A stretch of 64,000 bases of DNA, from positions 1 through 64,000 of the forward strand of contig CAXUUL010000015.1 in NCBI GenBank assembly GCA_964255285.1, read 5' to 3'. The translations under genes were made by a program, and so were the position numbers. Positions within the stretch are counted from its first letter, which is position 1. Every line of letters begins with the position of its first letter. This document shows, in pieces, positions 7,553 to 55,020 of the stretch. The notes under the pieces are model-generated. The model did not search any database and was not told the DNA's origin. It saw nothing but the letters and a program-made list of their open reading frames with translations. Source of the stretch: Ionaspis alba (taxonomy: Eukaryota).

Positions 7553-8407
7553 GCAGATGAGGAGAGCTATGGGGCGCATTGGATTTGGCTTTGGTTTTGG
7601 AATTTAGCGAGGCGCTGAGGATAGGGGGTTTCTTTTCCGGGTGGACGTGGGTAGGAGGTTTGGATATGTTTATATGAGTGGACGTGATGTATATATGGGA
7701 TATGAGAGAGAGGGTTGAAACAGTTTATTTTTATACTCCATAATCTAATCTAATAATAGTTGTTGAAAGCTCGCTCTATCGCAATTCTGGTCTATAGCTC
7801 CATGCACCTCGTCTAAGAAATCTGGGGTCTTATTCCAATGCATTTTCCCACAGAGATGATGACTCAGAGCTTTTCAAGTATTCACTAGTAGCCCAATACG
7901 CGCCAACTACCACGTTCGGACGAGAATGAAGCCACGCGTGATAGTCGTCGTGCGAGAAGGAGAAACTCTCCTCCGCCAGGGACAAAGCCTATAAGGCCAT
8001 CATGGTCGAGCTTAAAGGACTCGGGAGTGGAAGTATGATCGGATCTAGGCTACCGGCACATTAGTTCGAGTAGTCAATATCATAAATCAAACAAACGATT
8101 GTACGGTCATGTTGATGTCTCAGACAGCAGTTGGTAACAAATATGTTTATCCACATGATATTTCAGAACAGGTCTGTGTTGTGATTTGTGCTTCATCAAA
8201 GAAGAATAAAGGAGTGAAGGGAGCAGGAAGAGACGAAATCAGACGTACTAATGCGATCATATTTTGGGAGCTTCGAAACGGGATAAACCGTTCCCAGCTA
8301 CAAAGAGGACGCCTTTACTAAGCTCGGGTGGTAATGCTTGTTGGCTCTGAGGAAGTGTCGTGCGCTCGACGAAGAGCTAGAGCAAGAGTGTGTGTGCCTC
8401 CATTCAA

Positions 8408-9475: not shown

Positions 9476-9685
9476 TATGGCGGCTTGGCATCATTTAGCC
9501 GATCCAGGATATTTGGACGTCGCCTCGTCCNNNNNNNNNNNNNNNNNNNNNNNNNNNNNNNNNNNNNNNNNNNNNNNNNNNNNNNNNNNNNNNNNNNNNN
9601 NNNNNNNNNNNNNNNNNNNNNNNNNNNNNNTATGGCGGCTTGGCATCATTTAGCCGATCCAGGATATTTGGACGTCGCCTCGTCC
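9476..9685. other. Scaffold gap (100 N) with exact 55-nt flanking duplication
   Basis: 9476-9530 is identical to 9631-9685. Confidence 0.95.
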
Positions 9686-10012
9686 TTACTCGGGACAAGA
9701 AAGCCAACATCGATTGATGAAGACCAGGTAGGTACTCCCTTCATACATCAAGTAGTTGAGACCCGCCTTGTTGTACTGCCTGAGCTATCTGCTGAAGTCA
9801 ATGCATGTTTGTTGCAGGGAACGAATCAATTGACCGCCCACTCCATTGAGGAAGGGGCAGACCAGTTTCAACCATAGGAAGAGTTCTATGTTACAGCGAC
9901 CTGCTACCGCTGTATTGCGTACTACCGCTGTTTCTGCAGGCTGTATAACTCTTGAGTATCCCACCACTGTCCAAAGTGTGATAAGCAGAACCTTTGAAAT
10001 TGCCTGTATCAT
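9686..10012 (-). CDS. Possible small secreted protein (~82 aa)
   Basis: Signal-peptide-like start MIQAISKVLLITLWTVVGYS. A putative intron at 9785-9862 (weak donor GTCTGC, branch TTGAC, TAG acceptor) joins to LRQYNKAG...CWLSCPE*. No recognisable homology. Confidence 0.25.
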
Positions 10013-10492
10013 TTTATTAGCGTTTGACTTTAAGTCTCAAGCGAATTCTGAGTATAATCAACTTATCTTCTACTAGTCTCTTAGCTGTAGCTGATGTTTC
10101 TTGTATGTGTGCGTCGTGTTTGAGTCATGCGGAACAAAACTACCATGACAAGACCGAGGGTATGTGGAGAATTGACCAATAAGCAGTCTAAGTTCAGCCA
10201 TGGTGGAGTCTTCCTCTGCCTAGTCAGACTACAGCGCCATGATTTCCTGCTATAGGTCATGTTGTGGTGTTGGCGCTAAGTCGCGGGAAATCTTAGGTCA
10301 AGGGAATCAATAAATCAGAATTGCTATTGGTGAGGACCGAACTCACGACTCGAGAATCGATCTTCTGATCGCATCGAACCCCGTGCCTACCTCCATAGTA
10401 CCCTTCAATGTGCTCGAGAGCACTGTTCGATCAGGGCCCGGCTGCTCGACCATGTGTCAGGATCCTGGTTACCATTTGGCCAGGTATGGTGT

Positions 10493-10765
10493 AAAAAATG
10501 GCAAAAGAATAAGCGGTGTTGCCGGGGGAGCTACCCCTTTGTTTTCACTAGGCCCTAAGGAAACCCCGCCGAAGGCAGCCGGATTTGCTTTTAACTTCAA
10601 TACTGCTTCAGCTAGATTTCAGGGGGCCCTTAGAGAGTATGGTTTACCTTCCTTGCTCTGGGGAGTCGAACCCCACGTGAGTTGCGGCGCAGCCCACGGC
10701 TCCCGCTACAGGCCAGTCAAGGAATGGTATAACCGAGAATCTCTAACCTGAGCTAATTTGGCTGA
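10493..10765 (-). ncRNA. Unidentified structured, tRNA-like, putative RNA polymerase III transcript
   Basis: On the minus strand: TATA-rich tract (10792-10806), A-box-like TAGCTCAGGTT (10755-10745), and B-box GGTTCGACTCC (10672-10662) inside a perfect T-arm TGGGG-TTCGACT-CCCCA. A 17-bp bulged stem closes a four-way junction (10641-10734), a second ~13-bp stem follows (10553-10635), then a T6 run (10493-10498). G.U wobbles form only on the minus strand. Confidence 0.55.
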
Positions 10766-11869
10766 TTTCCGTTTGGTGGCAGAACAAGCCCTATTATAAT
10801 TATATACTTACAATACACAACTACATTATATTCTTCGCCTTTAGAAAAGCATCATTGCCCCGGGCTGTCATCATGTTTCTATCGGCCATCCAGTTTTCCT
10901 GCGGTTGACCATGGCATTGACCTATTGCTTAATGATGCCAGCGAGTCCACGATGGGTCTACTTTCAAAGCTTTACCTTATCCGCCACGGCCAGAACGTCG
11001 TCATATACCAGGGAATTATGGTCAGCAAGAAGTCATTGGAGCCTGCCACGATGTCTTATGCACAATGGCCCATGGAGATTTTTGGCTTCGACGATAAGTT
11101 GACAATACCAGCAGTCGTTTGCCGAAACGGCCGATCTGCGACACTTACCCAACAATGCTTGCCTCTAATTTCAGGCTTTACACAAATCCCTACGGTTCTT
11201 GATCCTAAGCTACACCTTCGCCATCGTCGACTGTTAGTACTTGACCGATTTTATCAGAAATCTACTGTCCTTTTGTTTGGTCTTCACCACTGTTCAGGAA
11301 ATGTTTGAGAAAGTATTCTTGTCCGAGCTCACAATTGGTATGGAATTCGCAGCACTTAGTAGACTACACCATGGACTCGGTCCTCGCCTTGCTTTCTTCT
11401 TGGGATGTTACGTCTCCGCATCATCAATGTCAATTAAAATAGCGACTGCTGTTTATGGTTCTGTGACATCGTGTGCTTGTCACCTGTTCTTCCAAAAAAA
11501 ACACGACTCAGATCTTCTGCACTCAGTCTGAGACCTCCGGATCTGTTCAGCACTTTCTACGGCTTCAGCGGCTACACTATCTCACCTCATGATTTACGAT
11601 CACTATTTCACTTCAAGTTGCTCGGGAATTCGCTGTCATTTATATCTCCTCGACTTAGACAAGCGACCTACCGACGAACGCTGGCCTGTGCAATTAATCT
11701 CATGCTTCTTCGCAATTTTCACCTTGATCTTCCAGTTGGTGCTACTCTTATTCCATGACAACGCCTTGATATCCTTTGCCGTTCCGTTAAACTTCTCTGT
11801 GTTCCAAGGTATGATCTTAGAAGTCGTTATCATGTTATCCTAACTTTGTTGATAGTCTGGGTAGCAACA

Positions 11870-13744
11870 ATGGCTACATCCGAGGTAGAGATGGAGCACA
11901 CCCTTACTTCTCTAGGCTCAGGGTATGGCTTTAGCACCGAAAATTTCGATCGGAGCTTTTCCATTGGTGTAGACCGCCAGGACTCGGAAGGCGCACAGTT
12001 CAACTTTGGTCCTGACGATGTCTGGTCTGCACGGAACTCTTCAAATGTCGGGAGAGAAAACCCTACTTTGAAGTACGAATTCAGACCCGCAGTCCGCACT
12101 TCTCAGCCAGCATTCTGCACATGGGTAGATGAAGATCCAAGCGGCGATTTTGATCCTTCGTGCAAAAGGAATCAGCCAAAGATTACCCCAGAGAAAAGGC
12201 GGTACAGGCCTGTGTATGAAGACAATTCGTCAGAAGAGTCTATCGCGAAGAAGCAAAAGGTGTATACTTGGCAGCTTGGAAGACGAACGGGATCAAGCTT
12301 TCCGATAACTCTCAGACTTGCTTCAGATGCTGGTCACACTTTACTCTCAAACCTTGGTACCTCATCCGACTACTGGCCTTCGCCTCAGTGGGTGGATCAG
12401 TTTTTCGAACCAGATCTTACAGAGCTAAATATTGATGCTGTCCAGCCACACCGCCTTCGTACACGCGAGGCAAACGGATTTAGAGGCACCCGGTCACAAC
12501 CTGACTTACCCTGCTTCCTCCACAATGAGCTCACGCTTGGACACCCAGCCGCAAGAGGCTGCAAGTCTTGCGCCGAGATTGATCTACATTGTAGTCTGCT
12601 GCAGGAAGGTGAAAAGTATCCCTGCATTGCTTGTTGCGAAGATGAGAACGACTGCGAGCTTGTGATACCTCCAGTCCACAAGCGTGCCTGTGCGAGGTGC
12701 CATCGTCGAAGGATCGTATGCTCCTATCGTGTTACTGAAGACCATAGCGGACCATGCAAAGATTGTGCCAGCTCCGACCAGAAGTGCATAGCTGGTCCAC
12801 GCAGTGGCAGAACTCGAACCGGCCCTTGTCTAGATCAGGACCCAGCCTCCCTTGCCCTGTTGCTGAAAAGTCCAGAACGGCTGTACAAGAGCTGTACTCA
12901 ATGTCGTGAATCGAAAACGCGCTGCTCACTCCTGTCGAAGCCCGGTTTCTCCAATTGTAGTCGTTGTGAGGACAACGGGGTGGACTGCACATTCAACACC
13001 GTCCAAACTCGACCAAGAAGAATCGCCAAAAAGCATCCGGAAGGTCTACCTCAACAGGGTCCGCTAAAGGCACCGAAAATTTCCGCCAGCTCCACTAAGC
13101 TTATCAAGACAAGACTTCCGCATCCGATCCGTTTTAATTATATGGACCCTGAGGACGGCTCAGTTCCTTGCAGCTGGTGCAACGATCTAACCTATGGCCT
13201 TCTGGGGCTCGGTCGCGTGAATGTCGAAGTTGCCGACTACCACGATGGTCAAGGCTATCTTGAGATTCGAGGAGGTCATGTAGGCAGAGGTGCCGAGCCC
13301 AGTCGGATGTGCCAAGAATGTACCTTGACCCGGTTAGAGATCGTGGCTTGTGGAGAGCACCAGATGACCATGCTAGAAGGAGTAGACACAGATACTTTGG
13401 ATCCAGACTATGTCGATGGCTTCCTTCTCCTAGGTGTGGCATCTCAAGCTACTTTTGAATGGTGTTCTGTATGTCCAACTATTGCGTCGTATGGCTGCGC
13501 AAAACCCAAGACTGTGGGCCCTGTTCAAAACCTCTCTGAGGAAGACGACGATGAAGTACTCGGCTGTGGACTACTTCTTTGCGAAGACTGTAGGAAGAGA
13601 ATGGCTTCAGATTATTGTGGTAGTTTGACAACCATGATAACGGACATGGAGGACGACGAGGAAATTCATGATTTTGCGCTAAGAGCTGACGCAAATTTTC
13701 TGCGCTCAGATGGTCATCTTGTGAGTCGTATTTACGGTTCATGA
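11870..13744 (+). CDS. Protein with three Zn(II)2Cys6-like clusters and a Cys-rich C-terminal domain (putative transcription factor)
   Basis: Three CxxC-x6-C-x9/10-CxxC-x6-C motifs (CKSC..., CARC..., CTQC...) plus CSWC, CQEC, WCSVC and GCGLLLCEDC. It may extend upstream to ATG 11589 via intron 11809-11855. Confidence 0.8.
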   Translation: MATSEVEMEHTLTSLGSGYGFSTENFDRSFSIGVDRQDSEGAQFNFGPDDVWSARNSSNVGRENPTLKYEFRPAVRTSQPAFCTWVDEDPSGDFDPSCKRNQPKITPEKRRYRPVYEDNSSEESIAKKQKVYTWQLGRRTGSSFPITLRLASDAGHTLLSNLGTSSDYWPSPQWVDQFFEPDLTELNIDAVQPHRLRTREANGFRGTRSQPDLPCFLHNELTLGHPAARGCKSCAEIDLHCSLLQEGEKYPCIACCEDENDCELVIPPVHKRACARCHRRRIVCSYRVTEDHSGPCKDCASSDQKCIAGPRSGRTRTGPCLDQDPASLALLLKSPERLYKSCTQCRESKTRCSLLSKPGFSNCSRCEDNGVDCTFNTVQTRPRRIAKKHPEGLPQQGPLKAPKISASSTKLIKTRLPHPIRFNYMDPEDGSVPCSWCNDLTYGLLGLGRVNVEVADYHDGQGYLEIRGGHVGRGAEPSRMCQECTLTRLEIVACGEHQMTMLEGVDTDTLDPDYVDGFLLLGVASQATFEWCSVCPTIASYGCAKPKTVGPVQNLSEEDDDEVLGCGLLLCEDCRKRMASDYCGSLTTMITDMEDDEEIHDFALRADANFLRSDGHLVSRIYGS

Positions 13745-14982: not shown

Positions 14983-17900
14983 ATGGGGAGAATCAAGAAG
15001 GCAGCGGGGCCTAAGCATGAAGCAACTTTGGTATGTCGTGTCGACTGAGTACATCTTCTGGTTACCTAGCTAAATGCGATGTCTCCGCAGTCTCCAGCAC
15101 TATCGGAATTTGTGACCAAAGCCACAAGCCTACCGCTGTCACAGTTACCGAAGCATCTCCAGTCCTTTCCCCCAAGATGGCCATTTCCACGAGGCGATCT
15201 CTATCACTGGATTCCCCTGCTCGACCACTTTGACTCCATTCTGGAACAGTTCATCCGAGAATATGGTTTGAATAGGGGACCGCAAACGCAGCCTTTTGCC
15301 AGGCGGCTGTTGGAAAAGGACATTTCAAGTACTGAGTCCGAGTTGTCTGCGGCAGCAACAGATTTCGGACCCGAAGGTGACCTCGACCTGGTGGAGACCA
15401 TATTGACGTTCTCGAGGTCATTACTCGAGAATTGTGGCAACAGAAGCCTGTACAGTAGCAGTGATCGCTTAGGAGAACTTCTCAACACCACATCCCTATC
15501 GCTCTTGTCCACCACACTTCGTCTTGCTACACGTCTGGCTCAACGGTATTACGCGTCACGTCAGCGTGGATCAACGTCGAGCCAACATCTCAACAATGCT
15601 CTCCTGGCAAGCCACTACAACATCAATCTTGATCATGTCCAACAACTGGCCGACAAACACGTAAGACCAAATCCACTAGCCGCCTACGCGGCCATGTCTA
15701 CCTCGGCGACACCCGCTGCGCCTTCGGGAGCCAAAGGAAAGAGGAAAGATTCCTTAGAACACGGCAAACCAACTGCGTTGACAAATGGTTGTGATCTGTT
15801 CTCAGCAGTCAAAGAGACTATTCCATCTGTCAACAGTTCTATCAGTCATGGAGGCAAGGCTTCTGGTGATTCCGCAAGGTTCGAGGACTGTGGGGAGGTC
15901 CGACTCCTCTACTACCAAACTGCCAGAGAATCGGAAGACGACAAAAAGGTCGCAGTCCCAGAGGAGAACAAGGCGCCAGACACGCCTGAAACTCCCACCC
16001 CCGTGAGACGAACTTCGGGTGTGTCACGGCCGAGCAGGCTTTCGATGTCAGAGGACTCGTCCAGTAGCACTCATGCCAATGCTCCCGTCAAATTGGAGGA
16101 CGCTAGTACAGGAGTACTTCGAGTGGTCGTGATTCCTGCTACCACGATTGCTTCCACTCCCATAGAAAAGATTCTTGACTCGAATCTTAACGATCTTCCT
16201 AAGCATTGCCATTACGAATTTCTTTGTAAGATTCGAGCTGCCCGAGCCATGACAGAGTCACTTTTCACTCGCCGCCAAATCATCGCGATTCGGATTCTGG
16301 CTATCACCAACCTTGCTTACGTCTATCCGGAGACCATGTTCCAGCAAAAAATATTGCAACAAGATTCGGAAGAGCCTCGACGCCTTCAGCTCACCTATCA
16401 GCTTGCAGATATTATACATCCTCCGGGGGGTGACCACGTTGGTATGCCCATTTACCTCAAGACGATAGCCTTGGGTGCACTTGAAGCTCTATCGAAACAC
16501 AAGAGCAGAGCGCCTGATGTTTGTACAGCGCTTAGTGTCAATGTCAACCATGGTGTTCTGCTCTATATGCTGCGGAAAACTTTAGCCGATTTGGCGGTGG
16601 AAGTCCCTGAAGAAGACACGATAGAAATGGAAGAATGGCGTGATGCTTTGTTCTCTCTCCTTGAAGCACTCCCCTCGGCCGCTCCCCGGACCGCCGAATC
16701 CTTACTTAGTGCCGGGCTGTTTGATGTCCTGGTCGAAGTCTTGACTCTTCGTACCAGTAAAGCGGAAAGAACACATCCGAAGGCGTTGATGTTCATGAAC
16801 ACAATCATCTATACCGTTCGTGACGCGTTTCAAAGCTTTGCCAACGCCAAAGGTCTGGACGCCATTGCTGATTTGATCTCATGGGAAGTTTCGACAGCAT
16901 TGCAGCGAGTGAAGCAGGGTGGTGGTCTACCGGAGCAGTTCAAGAACCAGGTCATGGACTACCAGATGCCATACTTTCAACAGCAGACACTACGATGGCT
17001 TCTCAAGTTTGTGAACCACATGATGCAACACGGCAACACAAACTTCGATAGGCTCCTCCGAAATTTGATCGACTCTCCGCAACTATTGAGTGGGCTGCGC
17101 CAGATCATTGCAGACGCCAAAGTATTCGGTTCCAATGTCTGGAGCGGAGCCGTCAATATTCTTAGCAGTTTCATTCACAATGAGCCGACAAGCTATGCCG
17201 TGATCGCGGAAGCTGGACTGAGTAAGGCATTACTTGAAGCAATCACCCTAAAACCCGTTGAAATGGGCTCTCAACCACCCGAGTCAGGCGAGGCCGCGGT
17301 TGGTGAACATATCGAGTCCGCAGAAACTGTGACCGTTCCTATAGGCGATGGAGAGGATTCCCAACCAAAGCAGAAGGTCAAGGTTGCACGCGCTGAAGGT
17401 AAGATACTTGCACAAGGCATCCTACCGGCTACCGACGCTATTGTAACAATACCCAATGCTTTCGGAGCAATTTGCCTCAATACCTCCGGCTTAGAGATGT
17501 TCCTCCGCTCCGGAGCACTCGAAAGTTTCTTCGAGGTCTTCGAAAGTCCCGATCATGTCAAATCCCTGGCTTCTGAGACCGATTTACCAAGAATACTAGG
17601 CAATGCATTTGACGAGCTGGTTCGACATCATCCTAAGCTAAAATCTGCAGTCCTGGCCTCCGTGATCCTCATGCTAGCACGCGTTGTCCGCCTGTGTCAA
17701 AGCCAAGCTCGAAACGGTGTTGGCGCTAAGCTATGGACCGAGGAGAAAAATGGAGGTGTTGTCGTCAGCGGTGGCAAAGAAGCTCTGCTAGGTGATATTA
17801 CTGAAGCTTCCCTCAAACTTTCGACCACCGACATCGACAACGACGTTGTAATGGGCGGTCAGGCTCTGTGGAAGCTTGACGAGACCACCGCTTCAGAGCC

Positions 17901-20900
17901 TGCGAGCAAGGAAACGAAACCGCCTGAGCAGCACAGCCTACCGGTGTCTACTTATATCAAAGTGACGACCAAGTTTCTCCTTGGCTTCTTCGAGAACAAC
18001 ACTCTGTGTACTCTCTTTATCGAAGCTGGCGGATTTGAATCCATATTGGACTTTGCAACGCTGCCAAGTCTTCCGTACGACTTCAACAATCACGCCGCAA
18101 GTCACGAGGTTGCCAGGGTTGTCCATATGCTCATCGAGCACAAACCTCACATTGTACTACCTTCTCTTATACACAGGACTATGAAGACATTAGACTCACT
18201 TGAGCCTCTTATGAGCTACTCCGGTGGCTCGTCCTTCTTTTCACAGTTTGTCTTGCAAAGTCCAAACACAACAAATTCTTTACAAGTGGACGAGAGTCGG
18301 ATGGATGAACGATTGAATGGTACTTCCATCATCAAAGCATTGGTCAATGTTCATACTCTGTGCAACATGTTCTATGAAACATTTACACCTCCAGCTTTTT
18401 CCCACCGAGCTCAGCACCACACCTTGTTCAGCCAAGTCAATCTAGCTGATTTGTACGTCTACCTGGTGAAAAGGCTGGGGTACTTGCATCGGTCTTGCGT
18501 TTGGCAAGAGATTTTACTACAAAATAGTATCTCTGAATCTCTACAAGAAGCAACGAGAATCAAGGGCTATGGTATGGGTAGTGATGAAGCGGATGAAATC
18601 TTCGGCTTTATCAACAGAGATCGCCCCACTACTTTCGCTGGCCAAGCAGTACCTACTGCATCTTCATCTCCCTCTCCAAGCCGATCAAACTCTGCTACGG
18701 ATGTCTTCCCGAAAGGTGATACCTTATCTTCGACTGCGTCCAAACTCGAAGATACCGCTCTCTTTCAAAATGTACAGTCACTGCGTTATCTTTTGAGCCA
18801 GATTCCTTCCTCCATTACACCTTTCCTCCAAGGCCTCGGAAAATCGCTCGTACCCAAGCGTAGACTTGATTCGTATTTACGTCAATGTGCTTACATGGTG
18901 GCCGATGCTCTGGCTGAGTCAACGCTGGAGCAGCTACGGTACGAGCTACCAAAGAAGTCTTCGTCCATGAAGGATCAATATGCTTACTGGATCGTCATTA
19001 TGACATCAATTTCGCAACTGATAATGGAAGGTTGGTATCGGCTTTAAGTCCATTGTAGTCGACATACTAATGGTTATGCTAGGTCCTCTCGAACGACCCC
19101 ATTCTCAGTGCCTAACCCTCGTCCTTCAGTCATTCAAGAATCATGGAGGCATGGATGCAATCAAAGATCTGCTCGTGACATTTTTCGACGAAGTAAAAGC
19201 CTTGTCCAACGTCTCAGATGAAGCAAATCGTGGCGTGGAGGATGCTGGCAGACTGGCATCCGCGTATGGAGGGATCAAGATCATCCTTACTTTCTATTCT
19301 CAGATCACGACGTCGAAGAACATCGTTGAATCGCAGCAGACGACTGGCATGTCCAGTCAAGACCGGGATCGCGAGCATCCTTACTATTTTTCAGCCAGCC
19401 AATTCCTTGTCGAGCTACGAATGGCTGTTCTTCCTGTGGTGAGATCTATATGGGACTCTGATTTCGCTGACCGGGCGTCAAGCTCGATTTTGAAGTGCTT
19501 GATCGGGATCCTTGGGACGATATTGGATGCCGAGCACGAACATGGAGCTCTCAAGAGAACAGATACAATCCCGATGCGTGGAAAACCCCAGTACAGAATC
19601 TACAATATCAATAGGGAGCGGGAGAAAGCGTTGGTAGCGAAAGGTATCAAGCCAGAGCTTGCTCGTGAAGCTCTTTATCGATGTCTGAACAATCGAGAAG
19701 CAGCGGAAGAATACTGCAAGGCTCGTAACGAGATTGAAGGCTACACAGAAAATCCGATTCCATCGTACGATGTCGAGAAGTCCAAGTCTCCGTCTCCTAT
19801 TCGGACGCCGCGTCGCGAAGACTCTCAAGCTACTGTTCCTGATGCAGATAGCATTTCGCAGACTGACAGAGTGTCGTTACCTTCGACTGCTTCTCCTGTT
19901 ATACGGCCAAGTTCGACTCAAAACCCACAAGTCGAAATCGAAGAAACCGGCGACAACGGACTTATCACTCCCGCAATGCTCCCTCCACCAGCTCCTGAAT
20001 GGCCACCGGAAACCGAAGTCGATGATGGAGAAGATATGCCTATGAACATTGATAATCTACTCAGCATCACGAATCTTCTCAATCCTACCACAGACGCTGA
20101 GCATGATCGTTCAAACTCCCGTGAGCTTTCGACACCCGCTTCGGCTACCGTTGTTGAGGCCACCAAACTTCAAGAAATGACGACAGTCGACGATCTGGAG
20201 GATGAACGTTCAGCTGTGCGGAAAAACCTCATCGATCGAGCTCTGGATGTGCTGGCTGTACATGGAGATGTGACCTTTGAGCTCGCGGACCTCATCACTA
20301 CGGCCGCAGCCAAAGCGCCAGATGCTGCCACTATGCGCAGGGAAATAGGCGAGACTCTAATTCAGTCACTAATATCATTCCAGATGCCAGAGGAGGATGG
20401 GGAAGACCTTAAATCAACAGGGAAGAAAATAGCCGCGTATGCCAATCTTCTGGCCCTAGTCCTGCAGGAAAAGGAGTTTTACGACGCAAGCTTGGACGAG
20501 TTGCGAAGTAATCTACCAATGCTCCTGACTTTTATCAAGATTTCTCCTATTTCCTCGGAACAGACCTCCGAGGATGCTTCTCCATGGGTTGGACAGATAC
20601 TGCTCATTGTTGAGAAGCTACTTGCCGAGGATGTGCAGCCACAACAGATAAAGTGGACACCACCTAATAGCGATGGATCAGTCCAAGGCGACACGATCGT
20701 CGAGATGGAAGAGCCCGGGGTTTCGCAGGATGATAAGATGCAACTCATGGAAGCGATAATCGATATACTACCTCGTATTGGCAAAGATGATTCACTTGCT
20801 TTATCGGTTACTCGAATCTTGGTCATCTTGTCAAGGAATCGTGATATCGCTAACATTCTGAGCGAAAAGCGGAACTTGCAGAGACTCTTTGTCATGGTGA

Positions 20901-23900
20901 AGCAGCTCGCCGGTATCAATAGTGAGAAACTACAGAGCTCGTTCATGCTTGTGTTACGGCACATTATTGAAGATGATGACACCGTCAGACAGATCATGCG
21001 CAGCGAAATCGTGGCAAATTTCGAAACACGTTCCTCACGACCAACAGATACTACTGGCTACGTTCGACAGATGTATCATCTGGTACTTCGTTCTCCAAGT
21101 ATCTTTGTGGAGGTTACGAATGAGAAGCTGAAGCTACAGAGTTTTGATCCAAACCAGAGACCACAAGTTCTCATCTTGAAGTCCGAAGGGAAGGAATCAG
21201 CCGGAATTTCTGAGCAGAAAGAGGATGCAGCAATCCAGAATCCTGCTGAGGATGGTGATGCTTCATCGAAGGATGACATCAAGCTATCGACAGAGGAGAC
21301 GAACACGTCTGGCCCGCTCGAAAAGTCTAAAACTCAGGACGTCAAGGCCCCTGTTGTAGAGCAACCGGACGGCGTTATCCATTATCTGCTGTCACAGCTA
21401 CTCTCTTATAAGGATGTTGAAGACAAAGATTCTGAATCAGGCACAAAGGATGCGGCAAAAACTTCCACTCCAGCACCAGCATCGGATGTGGAAATGACCA
21501 ATGGATCCACACCTCCACCACGAACTTCTTTACCGTCCGCGGAGAATGACACGGAGAAGAAGAACGAGAAAACAGCTTTCAAATCCGAACAACATCCGAT
21601 CTTCATCTATCGATGCTTTCTCCTAAGCTGTCTCGCTGAGCTTCTCTCATCATACAATCGGACCAAGATTGAGTTCATCAACTTCTCCCGTAAAGCTGAT
21701 CCTAAAGCAATGACACCATCTAAACCCCGATCTGGCGTTCTCAACTATCTGCTCAATGTCTTGATTCCCATTGGCACTCTAGATGTCAGCGAATCACATT
21801 CGCATAGGAAGAAGGCTACCACTTCGAGTTGGGCAATATCAACTATTGTTTCGCTTTGTATGCGGACTGGCGAGAGAGGCTACGAAAAGAGCGGTGTGGT
21901 CCTCAGCGAGGAACAGGAGCCAAATCTGCTCTTCGTTCGGAAATTCGTCCTGGAGCATGCTCTGAAAGCATACAAGGATGCCCACGCATCGACTGAAGCA
22001 CTTGACGTCAAGTATGCCCGCATGCTCAGTATCGCTGATCTTTTCAATCGTCTACTCGCCGGCAGACCCACAACGAGTAACGCACAGCATGTGAACAATA
22101 TGACATCCGCGACGCAGAGAGAGCTGGCTAAGATCATGTTTGAGAGAAGTTTTATATCTTCTTTGACAGCTTCAATCGCAGACATTGACCTCAATTTCCC
22201 CGGCTCCAAGCGAGCCGTCAAGCACATCTTAAAGCCTCTCAAAGTACTGACAGAAACCGCCATCTTTCTCAGTGAAAACTCTAGCATATCCACTACTCCA
22301 GGTCTGACTTCCGATGACGAGATCTCTACTGCTTCCTCGGTGTCTGATATGGACGACGAGCGAGAAGAAACGCCTGATCTGTTCCGCCACTCGACGTTGG
22401 GCATGCTGGAACCAGGACGAGAAGACGAATCGAGCTCTGAGGCTTCGGACGAGGACGAGGACATGTATGAGGACGAATATGATGATGATGGTATGGCGGA
22501 TTACGATGAGGACATGGATCGAGACGGTGACGAGGTAATCAGCGACGAGGACGATGAGATTGAAGGTGCTGGGCATGTGGAAGGTCTATCTGGTGATGTT
22601 GGAATGGATGTCGAAGTCGTAATAGATGGGGACGATGAGGACGACGATGATGAAGATGATGACCCGGATGATTCTGAAGACATGGACGATGGTGGAGAAC
22701 TCGAGATTATCGACGAGATCAATGGTGATGGTGACAATGATAGCCTAGTGGAAGGGGATGAGGAGGAATGGCAAGATGAAGATGATGAAGGCGACGTCTA
22801 TCCTGACGAGGATGGAATGGACCAGGAGTCTAGTGACACGCACGATCATCAACACCATCACCATCACCATCACGACGAGGATCTTGGGCCTCCCCCAAGA
22901 AACCTCGTGCAGGATATCATAGGAGCTGGACCTGATCTATCTGACCTCAATGCACAAGGATTTGCGGACCTGACAATGGACATCGAGAATGAGGTCTACA
23001 TGGATGATGTTGTTCGTGAAGATGATGGTAGGCTAGAACATATTTCCTGTTTCATTACTCGCTAACGCTAAAGAAGACGACGATGATGACGATGAGGAAG
23101 ACTTTGAGGACGAGGACGTAATATACGAACCCGAGATGGATGGTAAGTGTTCGGTATGCTTTGAGGGAATGTCCCGCAGCTTACATACCCTAGATGAAGA
23201 CTCGGGGCTTCCTGATCCACCGTGGGGCTGGGATACTGAAGACGATGCTTCCATGCAGCGTGGCCAGCCTCACCACCATGGTCGACGTTTGAATCCATGG
23301 ACCATCTTCCCTACTGGCGAGAGAGGCATGCTTGGTGAGCTTTATAAGAGTATTTTCGTGTCAAGTGCTTATTGTTTGAACAGTCCCTGCATACAATCGT
23401 TCTCACCGTATTGCGGGTGCGCCCCGAGGCACTGATGACGGGGTGAATCCCCTGTTGCTTCGGCAAGGACAAGCAGGAACTCCTGCCGGCCACGCTCGTA
23501 ATCGACATCCTCCACCAGACGCCGGCGCTTCTATGAGTGACTGGGTGCATGCCATAAACTCTAGAAACCAAGCAGACGGTGCCGTTTCCTTCATCAACAG
23601 CATCGTTTCTGCTGTGGGCCAGGGAGGTCCTGCTATTGGTACGATTGGAGGCCCCGGTGCTTTGCACTTTCACATTGGTGGCACCGCTCCCAATGGCCGC
23701 ATACCCCCAGAGGTTCAGGCGGTCTTGGGCCTCCGACGACCGATGCCAGAGCCCGTCAGATCAGTCAGAGAAGATCCACTCCAAATGGTCGATTTCGTGC
23801 CAACTTCGACCGTGATTCGATGGCAAGAAGAGGCAAGATTGCTCTATGGAACTAGTTACAACGAGAAGACACAGCGGGTAGTGAACTCTTTGCTTAAGAT

Positions 23901-26900
23901 TCTCGTTCCGCCCGTCATCGAGGAGGAGAGGGTACGGAAACAGAAAGAGGCTGAAGCGGCTGAAGCTCTCAAGAAACAAAGAGAGGAGGAAGCTAAGGCG
24001 AAGGCTGTGGAAGAGGAACGTCTAGCGAAGGAGAAGGCTGAGAAAGAAGCCCAAGAGAAGCAAGAGCAAGAAGAACGTGACGCTGCAGCTCTTGCTGCAG
24101 CTGAGGATGAATCTGCTCCTGAAGAGGCTCCGGCACAAGCTAACAATTATGGTGCAGCAGGAGAGGCTATGGAAGGCGTTGAGCCAACTGAGCCTCCAGC
24201 GCCCACCGTGGCCACTGTTACTACCACAATCGAAGACATATCGCACGAAGCGGGACCATCCGAGCAGCCTGAGCGTGTACGAGCGACATTCCGGGGCAGG
24301 GAAGTTGACATTACGGGACTTGGAATCGACTTGGAGTATCTCGATGCTCTACCGGACGAGTTAAGAGAAGAGGTTCTAATGCAACAATTGGCAGAGCAGC
24401 GATCACAAGCTGCCGCTGCTGGTGAGGAACCGACCGAGATCAGCCGCGAGTTCCTTGAAGCTCTCCCTGCTGAGATTCGAGAGGAGCTCCTACAACAAGA
24501 GGCTCAAGAACGGCGGCGTCGAGAGCGAGAAGAGAACCGACGACGATCAGCAGGCAACGGTGCGTCAGCAGTTGCCCGTGCTGAAGAGATGGATCCGGCT
24601 AGTTTCCTTGCATCTCTGGATCCACACCTGCGCGATGCTGTGCTCGCTGAGCAGAGTGATGCCGTCATTGCTCAATTACCAGCCGACCTCGCTGAGGAAG
24701 CTCGAAGACTTGGCCGTAGTCGTATGATGCAGCATGGCTACCCATCCATCAATCGTTTGGGTGTACAAATTGCGCGAGCTGATCCGGATCCTGAGTCCGT
24801 CACGAAAAAGCCTCCACGCCGCCAAATTGTGCAAATGCTCGACAAGGCTGGGGTCGCGACGCTTCTTCGCCTCTTGTTCGTCTCACAGCAAGGTAGTTCT
24901 CGTCAAACGCTTAACGAGATATTGCACAATGTTTCGCAAAACCGTCAAAACAGAGCTGAAGTCGTTAGCCTACTCCTTTCGATCTTGCAAGATGGCAGCG
25001 CGGACATCAATGCCGTTGAACGAAGCTTTGTTCATCTGTCCCTGCGTGCAAAACAGCCAGCTTCGCAAAAGACACCACAACCGGTCAAGCGCACCTTGAC
25101 TGGTCAGATGGCTGCTCCTCTAAGTGCCGAAATGACACCTCTCATGGTCATTCAGCAATGCTTGAACGCCCTCGTCTATCTTACTGAACTCAACCCTCAT
25201 ATCCCTTCCTTCTTCCTCACCGAGCACGAAACATCAACAGGGCTGAAAGGAAAATCGAGTAAGAAGGGCAAAGGCAAAGAGAGTCGCGCTTCCAAGTTTG
25301 CCCTCAATGCACTACTAAGTCTACTGGATCGTAAGTTAATCATGGAAAGTTCTGGTTGCATGGAGCAGCTGTCTACTCTCCTCCAAAGCATTACTCACCC
25401 CTTGACTATGCTGCTCCGGAAAGACAAGGACAAGACGACCACAGAAGTCACAAAGGACGAAGCGCCAACAACAGAAGCAGTAGAAGGAGCATCCACAGCT
25501 CCACCCACTGTCTCTGAAGGGGCCGATATCCAGACGGACGACACAAACATGGCCGATCCAAGCTCCGCTAGTCCAGAGGCACAGCCTGAAGCGGCAACAG
25601 CGACAGAGGCTATCGACAACGCTGACAATACAATTACTCCAGAAGTTACTGCAGTCCAGGGAGAGGTCAGGAAAGATGATGCTGACAAAACCGAGGCTAA
25701 AGAGACACCCAAGAAACAACGCAATCTCACTCCACCCGTTGTTCCCGAGTACAATCTTCGGCTAGTAGTAAACATCCTTGCCGCTCGAGAGTGTAGCGCC
25801 AAAACTTTTCGTGATACCCTGTCTACCATCAACAACCTGTCGGCAATCCCACATGCGAAAGAGATCTTTGGCAAGGAACTGATCAAGCAGGCCCAAGATC
25901 TTGGAGACTCCATTTCGCAGGATTTGGATGATCTGATACCTCAGATTAAGAGTGCTGGGTCTGGTACCGATATTCAAGGAATGGCTCTTGCTAAGTTCTC
26001 TCCCTCCTCATCCGACCAAGCGAAATTGCTGCGAGTTCTTACTGCTCTCGATTATCTCTTCGATCCAAAGAGAAATGGTGGCAAGACGAAGACTCAGGCC
26101 AAAGGCGGCTCGTCAAAGGATGAGCCCAAAGAGGATCTTTTGACTACTCTGTACGAGAATCCAACGTTCGGCCCTCTTTGGACCAAGCTGAGCGATTGCC
26201 TGAGCTGCATCCGCCAACGGGATAACATGGTCAACGTTGCTACGATTCTGTTGCCTTTGGTAGAAGCACTGATGGTTGTATGCAAGAACACCACTCTCAA
26301 GGATGTTTCTTCTATGAAGATGATGAAAGAATTCACAGTCGCAAGTCCACCTCCAGAGTCGCCGATGGAAAACCTGTTCTTCCGCTTTACAGAAGATCAC
26401 CGAAAGATTCTCAACGACCTTGTTCGACACAATCCTCGTCTTATGAGTGGCACCTTCTCACTACTTGTCAAGAATCCCAAAGTCCTTGAATTTGACAACA
26501 AGCGAAACTACTTCACTCGCCGACTTCATACCAGGACTGATCAGCGACACCCTCAGCCCCCGCTACAGCTATCCGTTCGTCGCGACCAGGTCTTCCTCGA
26601 TTCCTTCAAGTCTCTCTACTTCAAGTCCCCAGAAGAGATGAAGTTCGGAAAGCTAAGCATTCGTTTCCATGGCGAGGAAGGTGTTGATGCTGGCGGGGTT
26701 ACCCGAGAGTGGTTTCAAGTCATGTCAAGACAGATGTTCAACGCCGACTACGCTCTCTTCATTCCAGTGGCCTCTGATCGAACAACTTTCCATCCCAACG
26801 TACTGAGTCATATCAACCCGGAACATTTGATGTTCTTCAAATTCATTGGTCGTGTTATCGGCAAGGCTCTCTACGAAGGCCGTGCTCTAGACTGCCACTT

Positions 26901-27759
26901 CAGCAGAGCGGTGTACAAGAGGATACTCGGCAAGCCTGTATCAATCAAGGATATGGAGACTCTGGATCTTGACTATTACAAGTCATTACTGTGGATGCTG
27001 GAGAACGATATCTCTGACATCATCACCGAGACATTCTCCATTGAGACCGAAGCATTTGGTGTCACTCAAATTGTGGACTTGATCGACAATGGTCGCAGTA
27101 TTCCAGTGACGGAAGAGAACAAGCAAGAGTACGTGCAGTTGGTGGTTGAGTATCGCTTGACAGGATCAGTAAAGGCGCAGCTGGAAGAGTTCCTCAAAGG
27201 TATGACTAATCTGCGCTACCATCACCGGGGCATAAACTAACAATGGTGACCAGGTTTCCATGACATTGTTCCCGCCGAGCTCATCTCAATCTTCAATGAA
27301 CAAGAGCTCGAACTCCTTATTTCTGGTCTCCCGGATATTGACGTCGACGACTGGAAGAACAATACCGAGTACCACAACTACCAAGCCTCTTCCCCACAAA
27401 TTCAATGGTTCTGGCGCGCCGTCCGCTCCTTCGACAAAGAAGAACGAGCTAAGCTACTACAATTCGTCACCGGAACTAGCAAAGTACCCTTGAATGGATT
27501 CAAGGAATTGGAGGGCATGAACGGCTTCAGTCGGTTCAACATCCATCGAGACTACGGCAACAAGGATAGGTTGCCCAGCTCACATACTTGTTTCAATCGT
27601 AAGTTATCGCCGTTTCGTTTTCCGGAACCTGTTATGGCCGACAGAGTGCTAATTCGCGCAACAGAACTTGACCTCCCCGAGTACGAGAGCTACGACGCGC
27701 TACGACAACAGGTCTACACGGCCATGACAGCGGGTAGCGGGTACTTTGGCTTTGCATAA
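14983..27759 (+). CDS. TOM1: HECT E3 ubiquitin ligase Tom1/HUWE1 (~4,100 aa)
   Basis: MGRIKK start, [17 protein letters not shown]-terminus, acidic tract, UBM-like repeats ([26 protein letters not shown]), and HECT domain [15 protein letters not shown]...[14 protein letters not shown]...GFGFA. Introns at 15031-15090, 19031-19082, 23028-23073, 23143-23193, 23335-23383, 27200-27253 and 27599-27664. Confidence 0.97.
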
Positions 27760-44110: not shown

Positions 44111-45423
44111 TCAACGTCCACGAGGAAATCTCTGACCTGTGTGCATGATATTAAAGTCCTGCGCCTGATTGACTTCCAGGAACGGGTCATAGTATTCTTG
44201 CGTAACAAATGCACCATCCAGACCGCGGGAGTGTCCTTGTGCATTGTGGTCGCCTAATGTACGTCGTCGCAGCATACCAGATGTGGGATGACGGTTGAGC
44301 TGACTTGATATGCCGGGCCAATCTGTTGGAGGCGATCCTAGGGTTTGGTCCGTTGGATTCGTCGATTGACGACTCCTGCCTGGTAGCTCCCACATTTGGG
44401 CATTGTTGTCCATTGTATCGCTGATCCTGCTGCTATTTGCTGATGCTGGTCTCCATTCAATCCGCAATGGATTCCGAGCTCCACGGGAAGAATCTTTCGA
44501 CTTTCGGTCAGTGTCATGTCCCGAAAAGGGTACTGCGGTGTTCCAGAAAGAACAGGTACTGCACATACTTTCTGAATAAAGATTATGCTCCCAGCTCACG
44601 GTGAAGCCAGCATCCGCTGGCGTTGGCGCTCCAGAATGTTGATCCATCCACTTAAGCTCCTCAGGATTCTCTGTGAACANNNNNNNNNNNNNNNNNNNNN
44701 NNNNNNNNNNNNNNNNNNNNNNNNNNNNNNNNNNNNNNNNNNNNNNNNNNNNNNNNNNNNNNNNNNNNNNNNNNNNNNNGGCGCTCCAGAATGTTGATCC
44801 ATCCACTTAAGCTCCTCAGGATTCTCTGTGAACATCTTCACTGGCATTTGGGACAGGGCAATTTCATCTTCGAGAGTCCAGCAGATGCTCCGGTCGTACA
44901 CCGGGTTGACCCGGTCCAGCTCATATTGTTCCAAGAATGCTTTCTGCTTCCAGACGACAGTCTCGTTACCCGGAACTCTTGGCACTGGCAAGAACCGTTT
45001 GAACCCAGAAGTATGTCTTTCGTCGCCCTCCTCTTTGTATTCGTCCGCTGTCGGCCACGGAGCCATGGGGCGATTCTGTTCAGGCCCGAACCAAGGAGCC
45101 CAAATCGACGGCAAGGACAATACAGCGCTGCGGTTGTCGTGGAACTGCTTACCTTCGAAGGGTATAAGGGGAGGTCGGTTCGTTCTTCTGGCGAGCTCTC
45201 TGTCTTCCAAGATATTCTCCATGCGCTTCCTTGCTTCTTGGGCTCTGTCTTCGGCGAATGCTGCAGTATGCTCCCGGAACTCGGCAAAAGTATGAGGTAC
45301 GAACGGTGATCGATCAAATCGCATGCGGGCCAGGTTGGATTCCACGGTCAGCCAGCGGCTGTACAACGCGTCTCTCTCGTAATCTCGCGGCGATACCCAC
45401 ACTCTTGAGTTGCCGTGTGCCAT
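44111..45423 (-). CDS. Uncharacterised fungal protein (split by a gap artefact; true start may lie upstream)
   Basis: The ORF is continuous once the 55-nt duplication and gap are collapsed. Ordered-looking block RSPFVPHTF...APWPTADEYKEEGDERHTSGFKRFLPVPRVPGNETVVWKQK. Confidence 0.7.
44625..44834. other. Scaffold gap (100 N) with exact 55-nt flanking duplication
   Basis: 44625-44679 is identical to 44780-44834. Confidence 0.95.
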
Positions 45424-53172: not shown

Positions 53173-53567
53173 ATGTCTTTTTACGAAGAGGTTGAAATCG
53201 AGGATATGGAGTACGACTTTGACGACCAAAAATACTACTCCCCTTGCCNNNNNNNNNNNNNNNNNNNNNNNNNNNNNNNNNNNNNNNNNNNNNNNNNNNN
53301 NNNNNNNNNNNNNNNNNNNNNNNNNNNNNNNNNNNNNNNNNNNNNNNNGAAATCGAGGATATGGAGTACGACTTTGACGACCAAAAATACTACTCCCCTT
53401 GCCCCTGCGGTGACAGATTCGAAATCAGCCTTCGAGATCTTAGCGAAGGCCACGATGTCGCCGTCTGTCCGACTTGCAGTCTTATGATCAAGGTTATTTT
53501 CGATATGGATGACTTGCCGAAACTCAAGACAGAAGTATTGGGACAGCAAGTGGTTGTCAAGGCTTGA
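53173..53567 (+). CDS. DPH3: Diphthamide biosynthesis protein 3 (CSL zinc finger); ~79 aa after collapsing the gap
   Basis: [12 protein letters not shown]...[14 protein letters not shown]...[14 protein letters not shown]. 53194-53248 is duplicated at 53349-53403 around the N gap. Confidence 0.93.
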
Positions 53568-54920: not shown

Positions 54921-55020
54921 NNNNNNNNNNNNNNNNNNNNNNNNNNNNNNNNNNNNNNNNNNNNNNNNNNNNNNNNNNNNNNNNNNNNNNNNNNNNNNNN
55001 NNNNNNNNNNNNNNNNNNNN
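54921..55020. other. Scaffold gap (100 N) without flanking duplication; sequence is really missing
   Basis: The flanks differ, and the frataxin start and targeting peptide must lie inside the gap. Confidence 0.85.

What the first reader, a model, noticed from the sequence alone, without database searches (positions are those of the whole stretch)
10493..10806. Unannotated tRNA-mimicking structured RNA with a full Pol III promoter/terminator layout
Seen on the minus strand: GGTT-a-TACC-a-TTCCTTG-a-CT pairs with AG-CAAGGAA-GGTA-AACC (17 bp, three single-A bulges). This stem closes three hairpins: GGC..GCC enclosing a D-loop-like AGCGGGA, GTGGG..CTCAC with an 11-nt non-anticodon interior, and a perfect T-arm TGGGG-TTCGACT-CCCCA. 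A second domain follows (CTCTAAGG-GCCCC / GGGGT-CCTTAGGG), then two small hairpins and T6. Upstream lie an A-box-like TAGCTCAGGTTAGAG and a TATA tract. Three G.U pairs become A.C mismatches on the plus strand, which fixes the orientation. Established: A/B boxes plus a T-run define type 2 Pol III genes, and D-loop GG / T-loop contacts form the tRNA elbow. Inference: a ~270-nt Pol III ncRNA with a tRNA-like module. It is not a canonical tRNA (no 7-nt anticodon loop, no variable loop, over-long acceptor stem), and I could not match it by eye to U6, 5S, SRP or RNase P/MRP.
Basis: partly seen in the sequence, partly recalled or inferred. Interest (0 to 1): 0.85.

Follow-up and report, generated by a model that had tools for sequence, protein, structure and literature searches.

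The report
Single-copy tRNA-derived Pol III-like element
A fungal intergenic region holds one tRNA-like sequence laid out like an RNA polymerase III gene, most likely a tRNA-derived relic or SINE-like unit rather than a proven new RNA gene.

Summary
The window is ordinary fungal nuclear DNA. The candidate lies on the minus strand in a non-coding gap of about 2.5 kb between two divergent genes.

What holds up:
- The T-arm holds the window's only exact B box.
- T>=6 runs are rare in this window.
- Two tRNA covariance models built here pick this site as the window's best hit, on the minus strand. The acceptor stem does not align, and the score (18.9 bits) lies at the low end of genuine tRNAs.

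What does not hold up:
- ARAGORN calls no tRNA, and Rfam matches only T-arm fragments.
- The A-box match is poor.
- Fold energies fix the strand only for the second hairpin.

Copies: I found none in the window, and contig depth showed no excess.

Untested: conservation and transcription. No relative's DNA and no RNA run were reachable.

Best reading (0.5): a single-copy, tRNA-derived Pol III-type unit, like the low-copy tRNA-related SINE-like sequences of Aspergillus fumigatus. A selected, lineage-specific tRNA-like ncRNA remains possible (about 0.2).

The parts
10792..10806 (-). AT-rich TATA-like tract (TATATAATTATAATA), centred about 26 nt upstream of the inferred start near 10772
   Evidence: Sequence. 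Its role as a TFIIIB site is inferred.
10740..10762 (-). Piece resembling the 5' part of a tRNA (GCCAAAT-TA-GCTC-AGGTTA-GAGA).
   Evidence: Sequence. It is not within one mismatch of the recalled A-box consensus. No matching 3' half was found by eye.
10715..10745 (-). 5' strand of the closing helix: TAGAGA (10745-10740), a 5-nt internal loop, then GGTT-a-TACC-a-TTCCTTG-a-CT (10734-10715)
   Evidence: Pair probabilities 0.63-1.0. All pairs are Watson-Crick, so at the DNA level this is also an imperfect inverted repeat.
10698..10714 (-). D-arm-like hairpin GGC-CTGTAGCGGGA-GCC. In the canonical tRNA register it reads D stem CTGT/GCCG with D loop AGCGGGA.
   Evidence: The same 12-nt TGTAGCGGGAGC occurs at tRNA spacing in 19 of 19 ARAGORN-called tRNAs found with the pattern.
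10677..10697 (-). Anticodon-arm-like hairpin. The lowest-energy fold gives GTGGG/CTCAC with an 11-nt interior. The tRNA models prefer GGGCT/AACTC with the 7-nt loop GCGCCGC, which has C where tRNAs have U33.
10659..10675 (-). Perfect T-arm TGGGG-TTCGACT-CCCCA. It holds the only exact B box of the window (GGTTCGACTCC, 10672-10662).
10631..10657 (-). 3' strand of the closing helix: AG-CAAGGAA-GGTA-AACC (10657-10641), a 4-nt loop, then TCTCTA (10636-10631)
10550..10629 (-). Second domain: a long imperfect hairpin rich in G-U pairs. It folds at -33.0 kcal/mol on the minus strand and -22.9 on the plus strand.
10500..10537 (-). Two small, weak hairpins (GGGG/CCCC and GGCAA/TTGCC)
   Evidence: z -0.3; 71 of 200 shuffles fold as well
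10493..10498 (-). T6 run, the inferred Pol III terminator. One allele in run X1 carries an extra base here (T7).
   Evidence: 12 runs of T>=6 in 128 kb; table 4 (insertion behind 10492, depth 33.8 of 119)

Best explanation
This is a single-copy DNA sequence derived from a tRNA. It is either a relic of a tRNA gene or a low-copy tRNA-related SINE-like retroposon. It keeps the layout of a type 2 RNA polymerase III unit.

Inferred mechanism:
1. TFIIIC binds the intact B box in the T-arm (10672-10662) and a degenerate A box.
2. TFIIIB sits on the AT-rich tract at 10806-10792.
3. Pol III starts near 10772 and stops at the T6 run (10498-10493), giving an RNA of about 275-280 nt.

That RNA would fold into a long bulged helix capped by D-like, anticodon-like and T arms, followed by a second G-U-rich hairpin.

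Shown: the sequence elements, their order, the predicted fold, the partial tRNA likeness, and the absence of any known-family match. Inferred: transcription, factor binding and origin. No selected function for the RNA is shown or assumed.
For: - Context: fungal intergenic DNA. Zn2Cys6, His_Phos_1 and HECT/DUF908/DUF913 genes flank it. The 9785-11843 ORFs have no Pfam domain at the curated cut-off. The 145-aa frame across the candidate has no homologue.
- The T-arm holds the only exact B box in the window.
- The 24 specified bases of the D-loop plus T-arm pattern, at tRNA spacing, hit 19 metagenome loci. All 19 lie inside ARAGORN-called tRNAs: Gly 5, Ala 5, Thr 4, Asp 2, Trp 1, His 1, Arg 1.
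- Covariance models built from those tRNAs rank the site first in the window, on the minus strand only. R1 gives 28.2 bits. R2 gives 18.9 bits, E about 0.03, with the next hit at 9.9 bits.
- T>=6 runs are rare, at 0.09 per kb per strand, yet one lies about 165 nt behind the B box.
- No second copy is in the window, and summed contig depth shows no excess.
- Precedent: tRNA-related SINE-like sequences of 140-493 bp in Aspergillus fumigatus, with degenerate A and B boxes. Three are single copy and five of eight are transcribed (PMC5063351: abstract, sections 16 and 20 read).
Against: - No transcript is known: no RNA run holds the stretch.
- No relative's DNA was available, so neither decay nor conservation is shown.
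- The 3' end is T-rich, not the A-rich or LINE-like tail of a SINE.
- The flanking 7-nt repeat GCCAAAT is no better than chance (643 of 2000 shuffles).
- A plain decaying tRNA gene does not explain a closing helix of 17 bp (23 bp with the outer helix) in place of the 7-bp acceptor stem. It also does not explain a 17-nt T-arm kept perfect while the acceptor is unrecognisable. Both could point to selection, which favours rival 1.
- R1 and R2 were built from tRNAs chosen with the window's own motif, so their scores lean towards this site.
- The depth is, by the tool's own warning, not a copy number.
Confidence: 0.5

Rival explanations
1. It is a selected, lineage-specific Pol III non-coding RNA gene. 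The long bulged helix and the tRNA-like D/anticodon/T domain would form a functional unit, for example a protein-binding stem plus a tRNA mimic handled by tRNA enzymes, with the second hairpin as a further domain.
For: - The T-arm is perfect while the rest departs from tRNA.
- The closing helix has high pair probabilities, and its three bulges are all a single A on the same strand.
- The second hairpin is about 10 kcal/mol more stable on the minus strand, through G-U pairs.
- TATA tract, B box and a rare T6 run lie in the right order.
- The site looks single copy, as a gene would be.
Against: - No conservation, covariation or expression data exist.
- z-scores are only -1.2 to -2.5.
- The helix is all Watson-Crick and folds equally well on the plus strand, as a DNA inverted repeat would.
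Confidence: 0.2
2. It acts at the DNA level only. The intact B box would be an extra TFIIIC site of the ETC type, sitting between two divergently transcribed genes and serving as a boundary or insulator, with little or no RNA made.
For: - An exact B box combined with a poor A box.
- Its position in a 2.5-kb gap between a minus-strand His_Phos_1 gene and a plus-strand Zn2Cys6 gene.
- Extra TFIIIC sites and tRNA-gene barriers in yeasts are recalled from the literature. PMC2040200 was seen only in a search listing.
Against: - A lone TFIIIC site needs only about 11 bp. It explains neither the D loop at tRNA spacing, nor the long helix, nor the T6 run.
- No such sites are documented here for filamentous fungi; I ran no search for them.
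Confidence: 0.1
3. It is a chance resemblance in neutral intergenic DNA, picked out because very many windows were read.
For: - Fold z-scores are unremarkable.
- Strict T-arm-like hairpins occur twice in this window alone.
- B-box sites within one mismatch are not enriched: 6 found against 3.99 expected.
- The A box is off consensus.
- Rfam's tRNA model does not report the site.
Against: Several features coincide on one strand: an exact B box, a perfect 5-bp T stem, a D loop at the exact tRNA spacing also found in real tRNAs, the top model hit of the window, and a rare T6 run. Such a coincidence is unlikely in a single window.
Confidence: 0.12

Closest known systems
tRNA-related SINE-like sequences of Aspergillus fumigatus (AfuSINE2; PMC5063351; abstract and sections 16 and 20 read)
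   Same: Filamentous-fungal setting. A tRNA-related head with A and B boxes, the A box the more degenerate of the two. A body unrelated to tRNA. Size within 140-493 bp. Very low or single copy number. Location in gene-rich regions.
   Different: The paper says the AfuSINE2 heads could not be folded into cloverleaves, whereas here a D/anticodon/T module folds well. There is no convincing target-site duplication here and no A/T-rich or trinucleotide tail. No sequence comparison with AfuSINE2 was made.
Canonical cytoplasmic tRNA
   Same: T-arm and T loop. A D loop with GG at tRNA spacing. A 17-nt anticodon-arm-sized segment. An overall body of about 61 nt that aligns to tRNA models.
   Different: No 7-bp acceptor stem in register. 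C at the U33 position, or an 11-nt loop in the lowest-energy fold. A 3-nt variable region. No terminator within about 160 nt. Not called by ARAGORN or by Rfam's tRNA model.
Y RNAs with a tRNA-like domain (Deinococcus Yrn1, Salmonella and Mycobacterium YrlA; PMC4201824, passages read)
   Same: Works-like resemblance only. A long helix formed by distant 5' and 3' segments closes a multi-helix domain with D-like and T arms. In Yrn1 there is also an 'anticodon arm' with a non-standard loop.
   Different: Those are bacterial RNAs encoded next to the Ro60 gene rsr. No Rfam Y RNA or YrlA match was reported at E<=10. No TROVE domain turned up among the window ORFs scanned. A 2020 review states that Y RNAs have not been identified in fungi (PMC7281143, passage read).
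mascRNA/menRNA tRNA-like 3' modules (Rfam RF01684)
   Same: A tRNA-like module with a canonical T-arm but no decoding anticodon loop.
   Different: Only the 17-nt T-arm aligns (12.8 bits against a gathering score of 42.5). That family is from animals, where RNase P cuts the module out of a Pol II transcript (recalled).
Yeast Pol III genes with promoter-bearing leaders (RPR1, SNR52) - recalled, not tested
   Same: A and B boxes lie in a 5' part, followed by a downstream RNA body and a T-run terminator.
   Different: The downstream 170 nt match no RNase P, MRP or snoRNA model. By eye I found no C/D or H/ACA box arrangement there.

Membership tests
tRNA (ARAGORN; Rfam RF00005) | Called by a tRNA finder, or reaches the family's score | tested here: not met
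   ARAGORN found 0 genes in the window. With loosened thresholds it gave only implausible calls with 8-335-nt 'introns'. Rfam at gathering scores gave 0 hits. At E<=10 on 166 nt the only tRNA-clan row is a partial tRNA-Sec match of 11.8 bits.
tRNA (ARAGORN; Rfam RF00005) | T-arm with a TTCRANY loop and a 5-bp stem; D loop with GG at the standard distance | tested here: met
   TGGGG-TTCGACT-CCCCA at 10675-10659, and AGCGGGA 24 nt before the T stem. The same pattern occurs in 19 of 19 genuine tRNAs found with it.
tRNA (ARAGORN; Rfam RF00005) | 7-bp acceptor stem in register, and a 7-nt anticodon loop with U33 | tested here: not met
   Models R1 and R2 delete most of the 5' acceptor strand and part of the 3' strand. 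They align the loop as GCGCCGC, with C at position 33 and one C-A mismatch in the stem. The R2 score is 18.9 bits. The 69 matches in 7 of the 19 tRNA loci score 13.3-79.4 bits, and most of those were training members.
tRNA-derived SINE | tRNA-related 5' head with internal A and B boxes, followed by a body unrelated to tRNA | tested here: met
   B box exact. A box degenerate. About 165 nt of body with no tRNA or Rfam likeness.
tRNA-derived SINE | Several dispersed copies | tested here: inconclusive
   No copy elsewhere in the 64-kb window. Summed contig depth in run X1 is 141-146 over the candidate against 98-138 in the bins from 10814 to 12019, at 80% likeness, but the tool warns this is no copy number. 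No whole genome is held. Single-copy members are reported for AfuSINE2 (PMC5063351, section 20).
tRNA-derived SINE | Target-site duplication and an A-rich or LINE-related 3' tail | tested here: not met
   The best flanking direct repeat is 7 nt (GCCAAAT), and 643 of 2000 shuffles match or beat it. The 3' end is T-rich.
Type 2 Pol III gene | B box, A box 30-90 nt upstream, and a T-run terminator on the same strand | tested here: inconclusive
   B box exact at 10672-10662. The A-box-like element lies 83 nt upstream but is more than one mismatch from the recalled consensus. T6 is present and T>=6 runs are rare.
Type 2 Pol III gene | A Pol III transcript of the predicted size | not testable with these tools
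   No RNA run was listed for the stretch.
SRP RNA, RNase P/MRP RNA, U6, Y RNA, vault RNA and other curated families (Rfam 15) | A match to the family's covariance model | tested here: not met
   nothing beyond T-arm fragments and junk of at most 15.2 bits. As a control, the same lax search recovered an snR56-type snoRNA elsewhere in the window at 46.1 bits.
Y RNA with a tRNA-like domain | A Ro60 (TROVE) protein in the organism, and a Ro-binding helix motif | not testable with these tools
   No genome is held. No TROVE domain turned up among the window ORFs scanned.

The most novel reading that the evidence does not exclude
A fungal, Pol III-made structured RNA in which a long A-bulged helix closes a tRNA-mimicking D/anticodon/T domain. 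That is the architecture of tRNA-like Y RNAs, seen here in a kingdom where a 2020 review says Y RNAs have not been identified. It would be an exapted tRNA that serves as a protein tether or as a decoy for tRNA-processing and tRNA-modifying enzymes.
Probability: 0.1. Interest if true: 0.7.

Novelty: new member of a known kind. Interest (0 to 1): 0.3.

Why it matters
Few Pol III products other than tRNA, 5S, U6, SRP RNA and RNase P RNA are known in filamentous fungi. If this one is transcribed and conserved, it would be a clear case of a tRNA turned into a structured RNA with a new closing helix. It would also be a handle on tRNA mimicry in fungi.

As things stand it is one unreplicated locus of a kind already reported: low-copy tRNA-related Pol III-like sequences. 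It matters mainly as an annotation note and as a candidate for a cheap northern blot or small-RNA check.

Tried and rejected
- **Whole-genome search:** no genome is held for this window.
- **Sequencing runs:** 1 holder (X1, kind not on record) and no RNA holder listed, so expression could not be examined.
- **Laying X1-X3:** X2 and X3 gave no cover over 10412-12019. X2's pieces elsewhere are near-identical low-depth copies of the window, not a relative. This says nothing about conservation. The rows for X1 pieces and variants inside 10277-10757 were not shown, so allelic variation in the candidate could not be read, apart from the T6/T7 indel.
- **Metagenome scan with a D-loop plus T-arm pattern:** 19 loci, all ordinary tRNAs, many of them in long tRNA arrays. 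None has the long helix or the second domain, so none is a homologue.
- **Exact 24-mer across the T-arm/3'-stem junction:** 0 hits in genome contigs and 0 in viral contigs. These collections hold no fungal genomes, so the blanks mean little.
- **Earlier findings of this scan:** nothing by place, sequence or relatives. The word searches gave nothing relevant.
- **Protein route:** the 145-aa open frame over the candidate has no homologue and no Pfam domain at the curated cut-off.
- **Readings considered by eye and dropped:**
  - A tRNA-Ile(UAU)-like gene split by a long intron. The upstream piece has no matching 3' anticodon-stem or acceptor strand.
  - A permuted tRNA.
  - A retrotransposon primer-binding site on the plus strand. 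The TGG start is lacking.
  - A C/D or H/ACA snoRNA in the 3' domain. No box arrangement was found.
  - An SRP Alu domain. The hairpin order is wrong and there is no S domain.
- **Paper searches:** 'tRNA-like' + 'polymerase III' + 'Pezizomycotina' gave 2 papers, both general reviews seen in the listing only. I found no description of such an RNA, but this one search is not a thorough survey.

Full report
**Setting.** The window is ordinary fungal nuclear DNA.
- Its long ORFs carry dynactin, a HECT E3 ligase with DUF908/DUF913, CDC20, RabGAP, cytochrome P450, ribosomal protein S6e, a fungal Zn2Cys6 cluster and similar domains.
- No whole genome is held for it.
- The candidate (10493-10806, minus strand) lies in a gap of about 2.5 kb between a minus-strand His_Phos_1 gene (to 9298) and a plus-strand Zn2Cys6 gene (from about 11846).
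- The ORFs in that gap have no Pfam domain at the curated cut-off. The 145-aa open frame across the candidate has no homologue. The region is therefore non-coding.

**Observation.**
- The 17-bp helix with three single-A bulges has pair probabilities of 0.93-1.0, apart from the innermost CT/AG pair at about 0.65.
- It encloses a weak GGC/GCC hairpin (about 0.55), GTGGG/CTCAC (0.81) and a perfect T-arm (0.72-0.89).
- The helix extends outward by a further 6 bp, TAGAGA/TCTCTA.
- A long hairpin at 10629-10550 does exist, but with other pairs.

**Strand.** Fold energy does not set the strand for the whole region (-101.4 against -101.7 kcal/mol) or for the module (-38.7 against -38.1). It does for the second hairpin (-33.0 against -22.9), which has six G-U pairs. 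The strand is better fixed by the polarity of the tRNA-like features and by the covariance-model hits, which are on the minus strand only.

**Weight against chance.**
- Fold z-scores are modest. The whole region gives -1.2. The module gives -1.9, or -2.5 with the outer helix. The second hairpin gives -1.9 and the 3' hairpins -0.3.
- The exact B box is the only one in 128 kb of both strands. Sites within one mismatch are not enriched: 6 against 3.99 expected.
- Strict T-arm-like hairpins occur twice in the window.
- Runs of T>=6 are rare (12 in 128 kb), so one about 165 nt behind the B box on the same strand carries some weight.
- The flanking 7-nt repeat GCCAAAT does not (643 of 2000 shuffles).

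**Relation to tRNA.**
- A metagenome scan used the module's D-loop segment and T-arm core, with a free gap of 15-36 nt. It returned 19 loci.
- All 19 matches lie inside ARAGORN-called tRNAs of seven isotypes, many of them in long tRNA arrays. They make 16 distinct sequences. These are not homologues of the element. They show that its D loop and T-arm, and the distance between them, fall within real tRNA sequence space.
- I built model R1 from 15 of the 16 distinct sequences, leaving out the 83-nt L014. I built R2 from the 120 matches of R1 in the 19 loci, where ARAGORN had called 157 tRNAs.
- With filters off, both models rank the module first in the window. R1 gives 28.2 bits. R2 gives 18.9 bits, rough E of 0.03, with the next hit at 9.9 bits.
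- The alignments give a canonical register:
  - D stem CTGT/GCCG and D loop AGCGGGA.
  - Anticodon stem GGGCT/AACTC with one C-A mismatch.
  - A 7-nt loop GCGCCGC with C at position 33.
  - A 3-nt variable region and a perfect T-arm.
  - The acceptor strands largely deleted.
- Under R2, the 69 matches in 7 of the 19 loci score 13.3-79.4 bits, and most were training members. The module sits at the very bottom of that range.
- Both models derive from tRNAs selected with the window's own motif, so they lean towards the site.
- The independent tests fail. ARAGORN calls nothing. Rfam reports only T-arm fragments: mascRNA 12.8 bits and tRNA-Sec 11.8 bits.
- The module is tRNA-related, but it is not a tRNA.

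**Other known families.** Rfam at gathering scores finds nothing in 64 kb. Lax searches of the candidate in three pieces give only junk. The lax search does work in this genome. It recovered an snR56-type C/D snoRNA at 8118-8203 at 46.1 bits, below that family's gathering score of 54.

**Copies.**
- There is no second copy in the window.
- In the one run that holds the stretch, summed contig depth at 80% likeness is 141-146 over the candidate, against 98-138 in the bins from 10814 to 12019. The tool warns that this is no copy number, so it is only a weak sign of single copy.
- One allele has T7 instead of T6.

**Conservation and expression.** Neither could be tested.

**Mechanism.**
- The most economical reading is a tRNA-derived type 2 Pol III unit. 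TFIIIC would bind the B box and a weak A box. TFIIIB would sit on the AT-rich tract about 26 nt before an inferred start near 10772. Transcription would end at T6, giving an RNA of about 275-280 nt with the predicted fold. All of these steps are inferred.
- Such units are described in Aspergillus fumigatus as tRNA-related SINE-like sequences of 140-493 bp with degenerate A and B boxes. Three are single copy and five of eight are transcribed (PMC5063351: abstract, sections 16 and 20).
- Against a plain relic: the acceptor is replaced by a helix of 17 bp (23 bp with the outer helix), and the T-arm is perfect while the acceptor is unrecognisable.
- This keeps open a selected RNA. Its architecture recalls the Y RNAs with tRNA-like domains of bacteria (PMC4201824, passages read). 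A 2020 review says Y RNAs have not been identified in fungi (PMC7281143, passage read).
- The helix is all Watson-Crick and folds equally well on the other strand, as a DNA inverted repeat would.

**Verdict.** This is a real, tRNA-related, Pol III-like sequence feature of a kind already reported in filamentous fungi. It is unproven as a gene. Interest is 0.3. The bolder reading, a fungal tRNA-mimicking RNA with a Y-RNA-like layout, has a probability of about 0.1.

Noticed in passing
window 8118-8203 (-): An snR56-type box C/D snoRNA. It has the C box TGATGA, a D' element and a terminal CTGA, and its guide segment matches the family consensus. It scores 46.1 bits, below Rfam's gathering score of 54, so the default scan missed it. 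Contigs of the two other organisms in runs X2 and X3 cover 8120-8198 with unlike flanks, so it is conserved beyond this species.
   Followed up: partly
window 9476-9685, 44625-44834, 50383-50592, 53194-53403 (also N run 54921-55020): Exact 55-nt direct repeats spaced 155 nt apart flank four of the window's five 100-N gaps. A contig of run X1 joins 9475 directly to 9631. The gap plus duplicate is therefore an assembly artefact, not biology.
   Followed up: yes
window 10330-10346 (-) and about 10211-10411: A second T-arm-like hairpin, GTGAG-TTCGGTC-CTCAC (G where tRNAs have A58), lies about 150 nt beyond the T6 run, and a GGGGTTCGATG motif lies nearby. Summed contig depth in this bin is about twice that of its neighbours (230.9), which may mean a repeated segment.
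   Followed up: no
window 9886-10276: Run X1 holds two haplotypes that differ at several per cent in this intergenic DNA, for example 8 differences in the 171 nt of 10106-10276. The sample is heterozygous, heterokaryotic or mixed.
   Followed up: no
window 15070-27756 (+): A very large Tom1/HUWE1-type HECT E3 ligase gene (DUF908, DUF913, UBM and HECT domains), split over several open frames by introns.
   Followed up: no
L012 1426-3518; L001, L011, L013, L017; L008 341-414: The metagenome contigs fetched by the pattern carry dense arrays of 17-24 tRNA genes. One call in L012 (2096-2167) has a 4-base anticodon (ggta), and one in L008 has a tta 'stop' anticodon.
   Followed up: no
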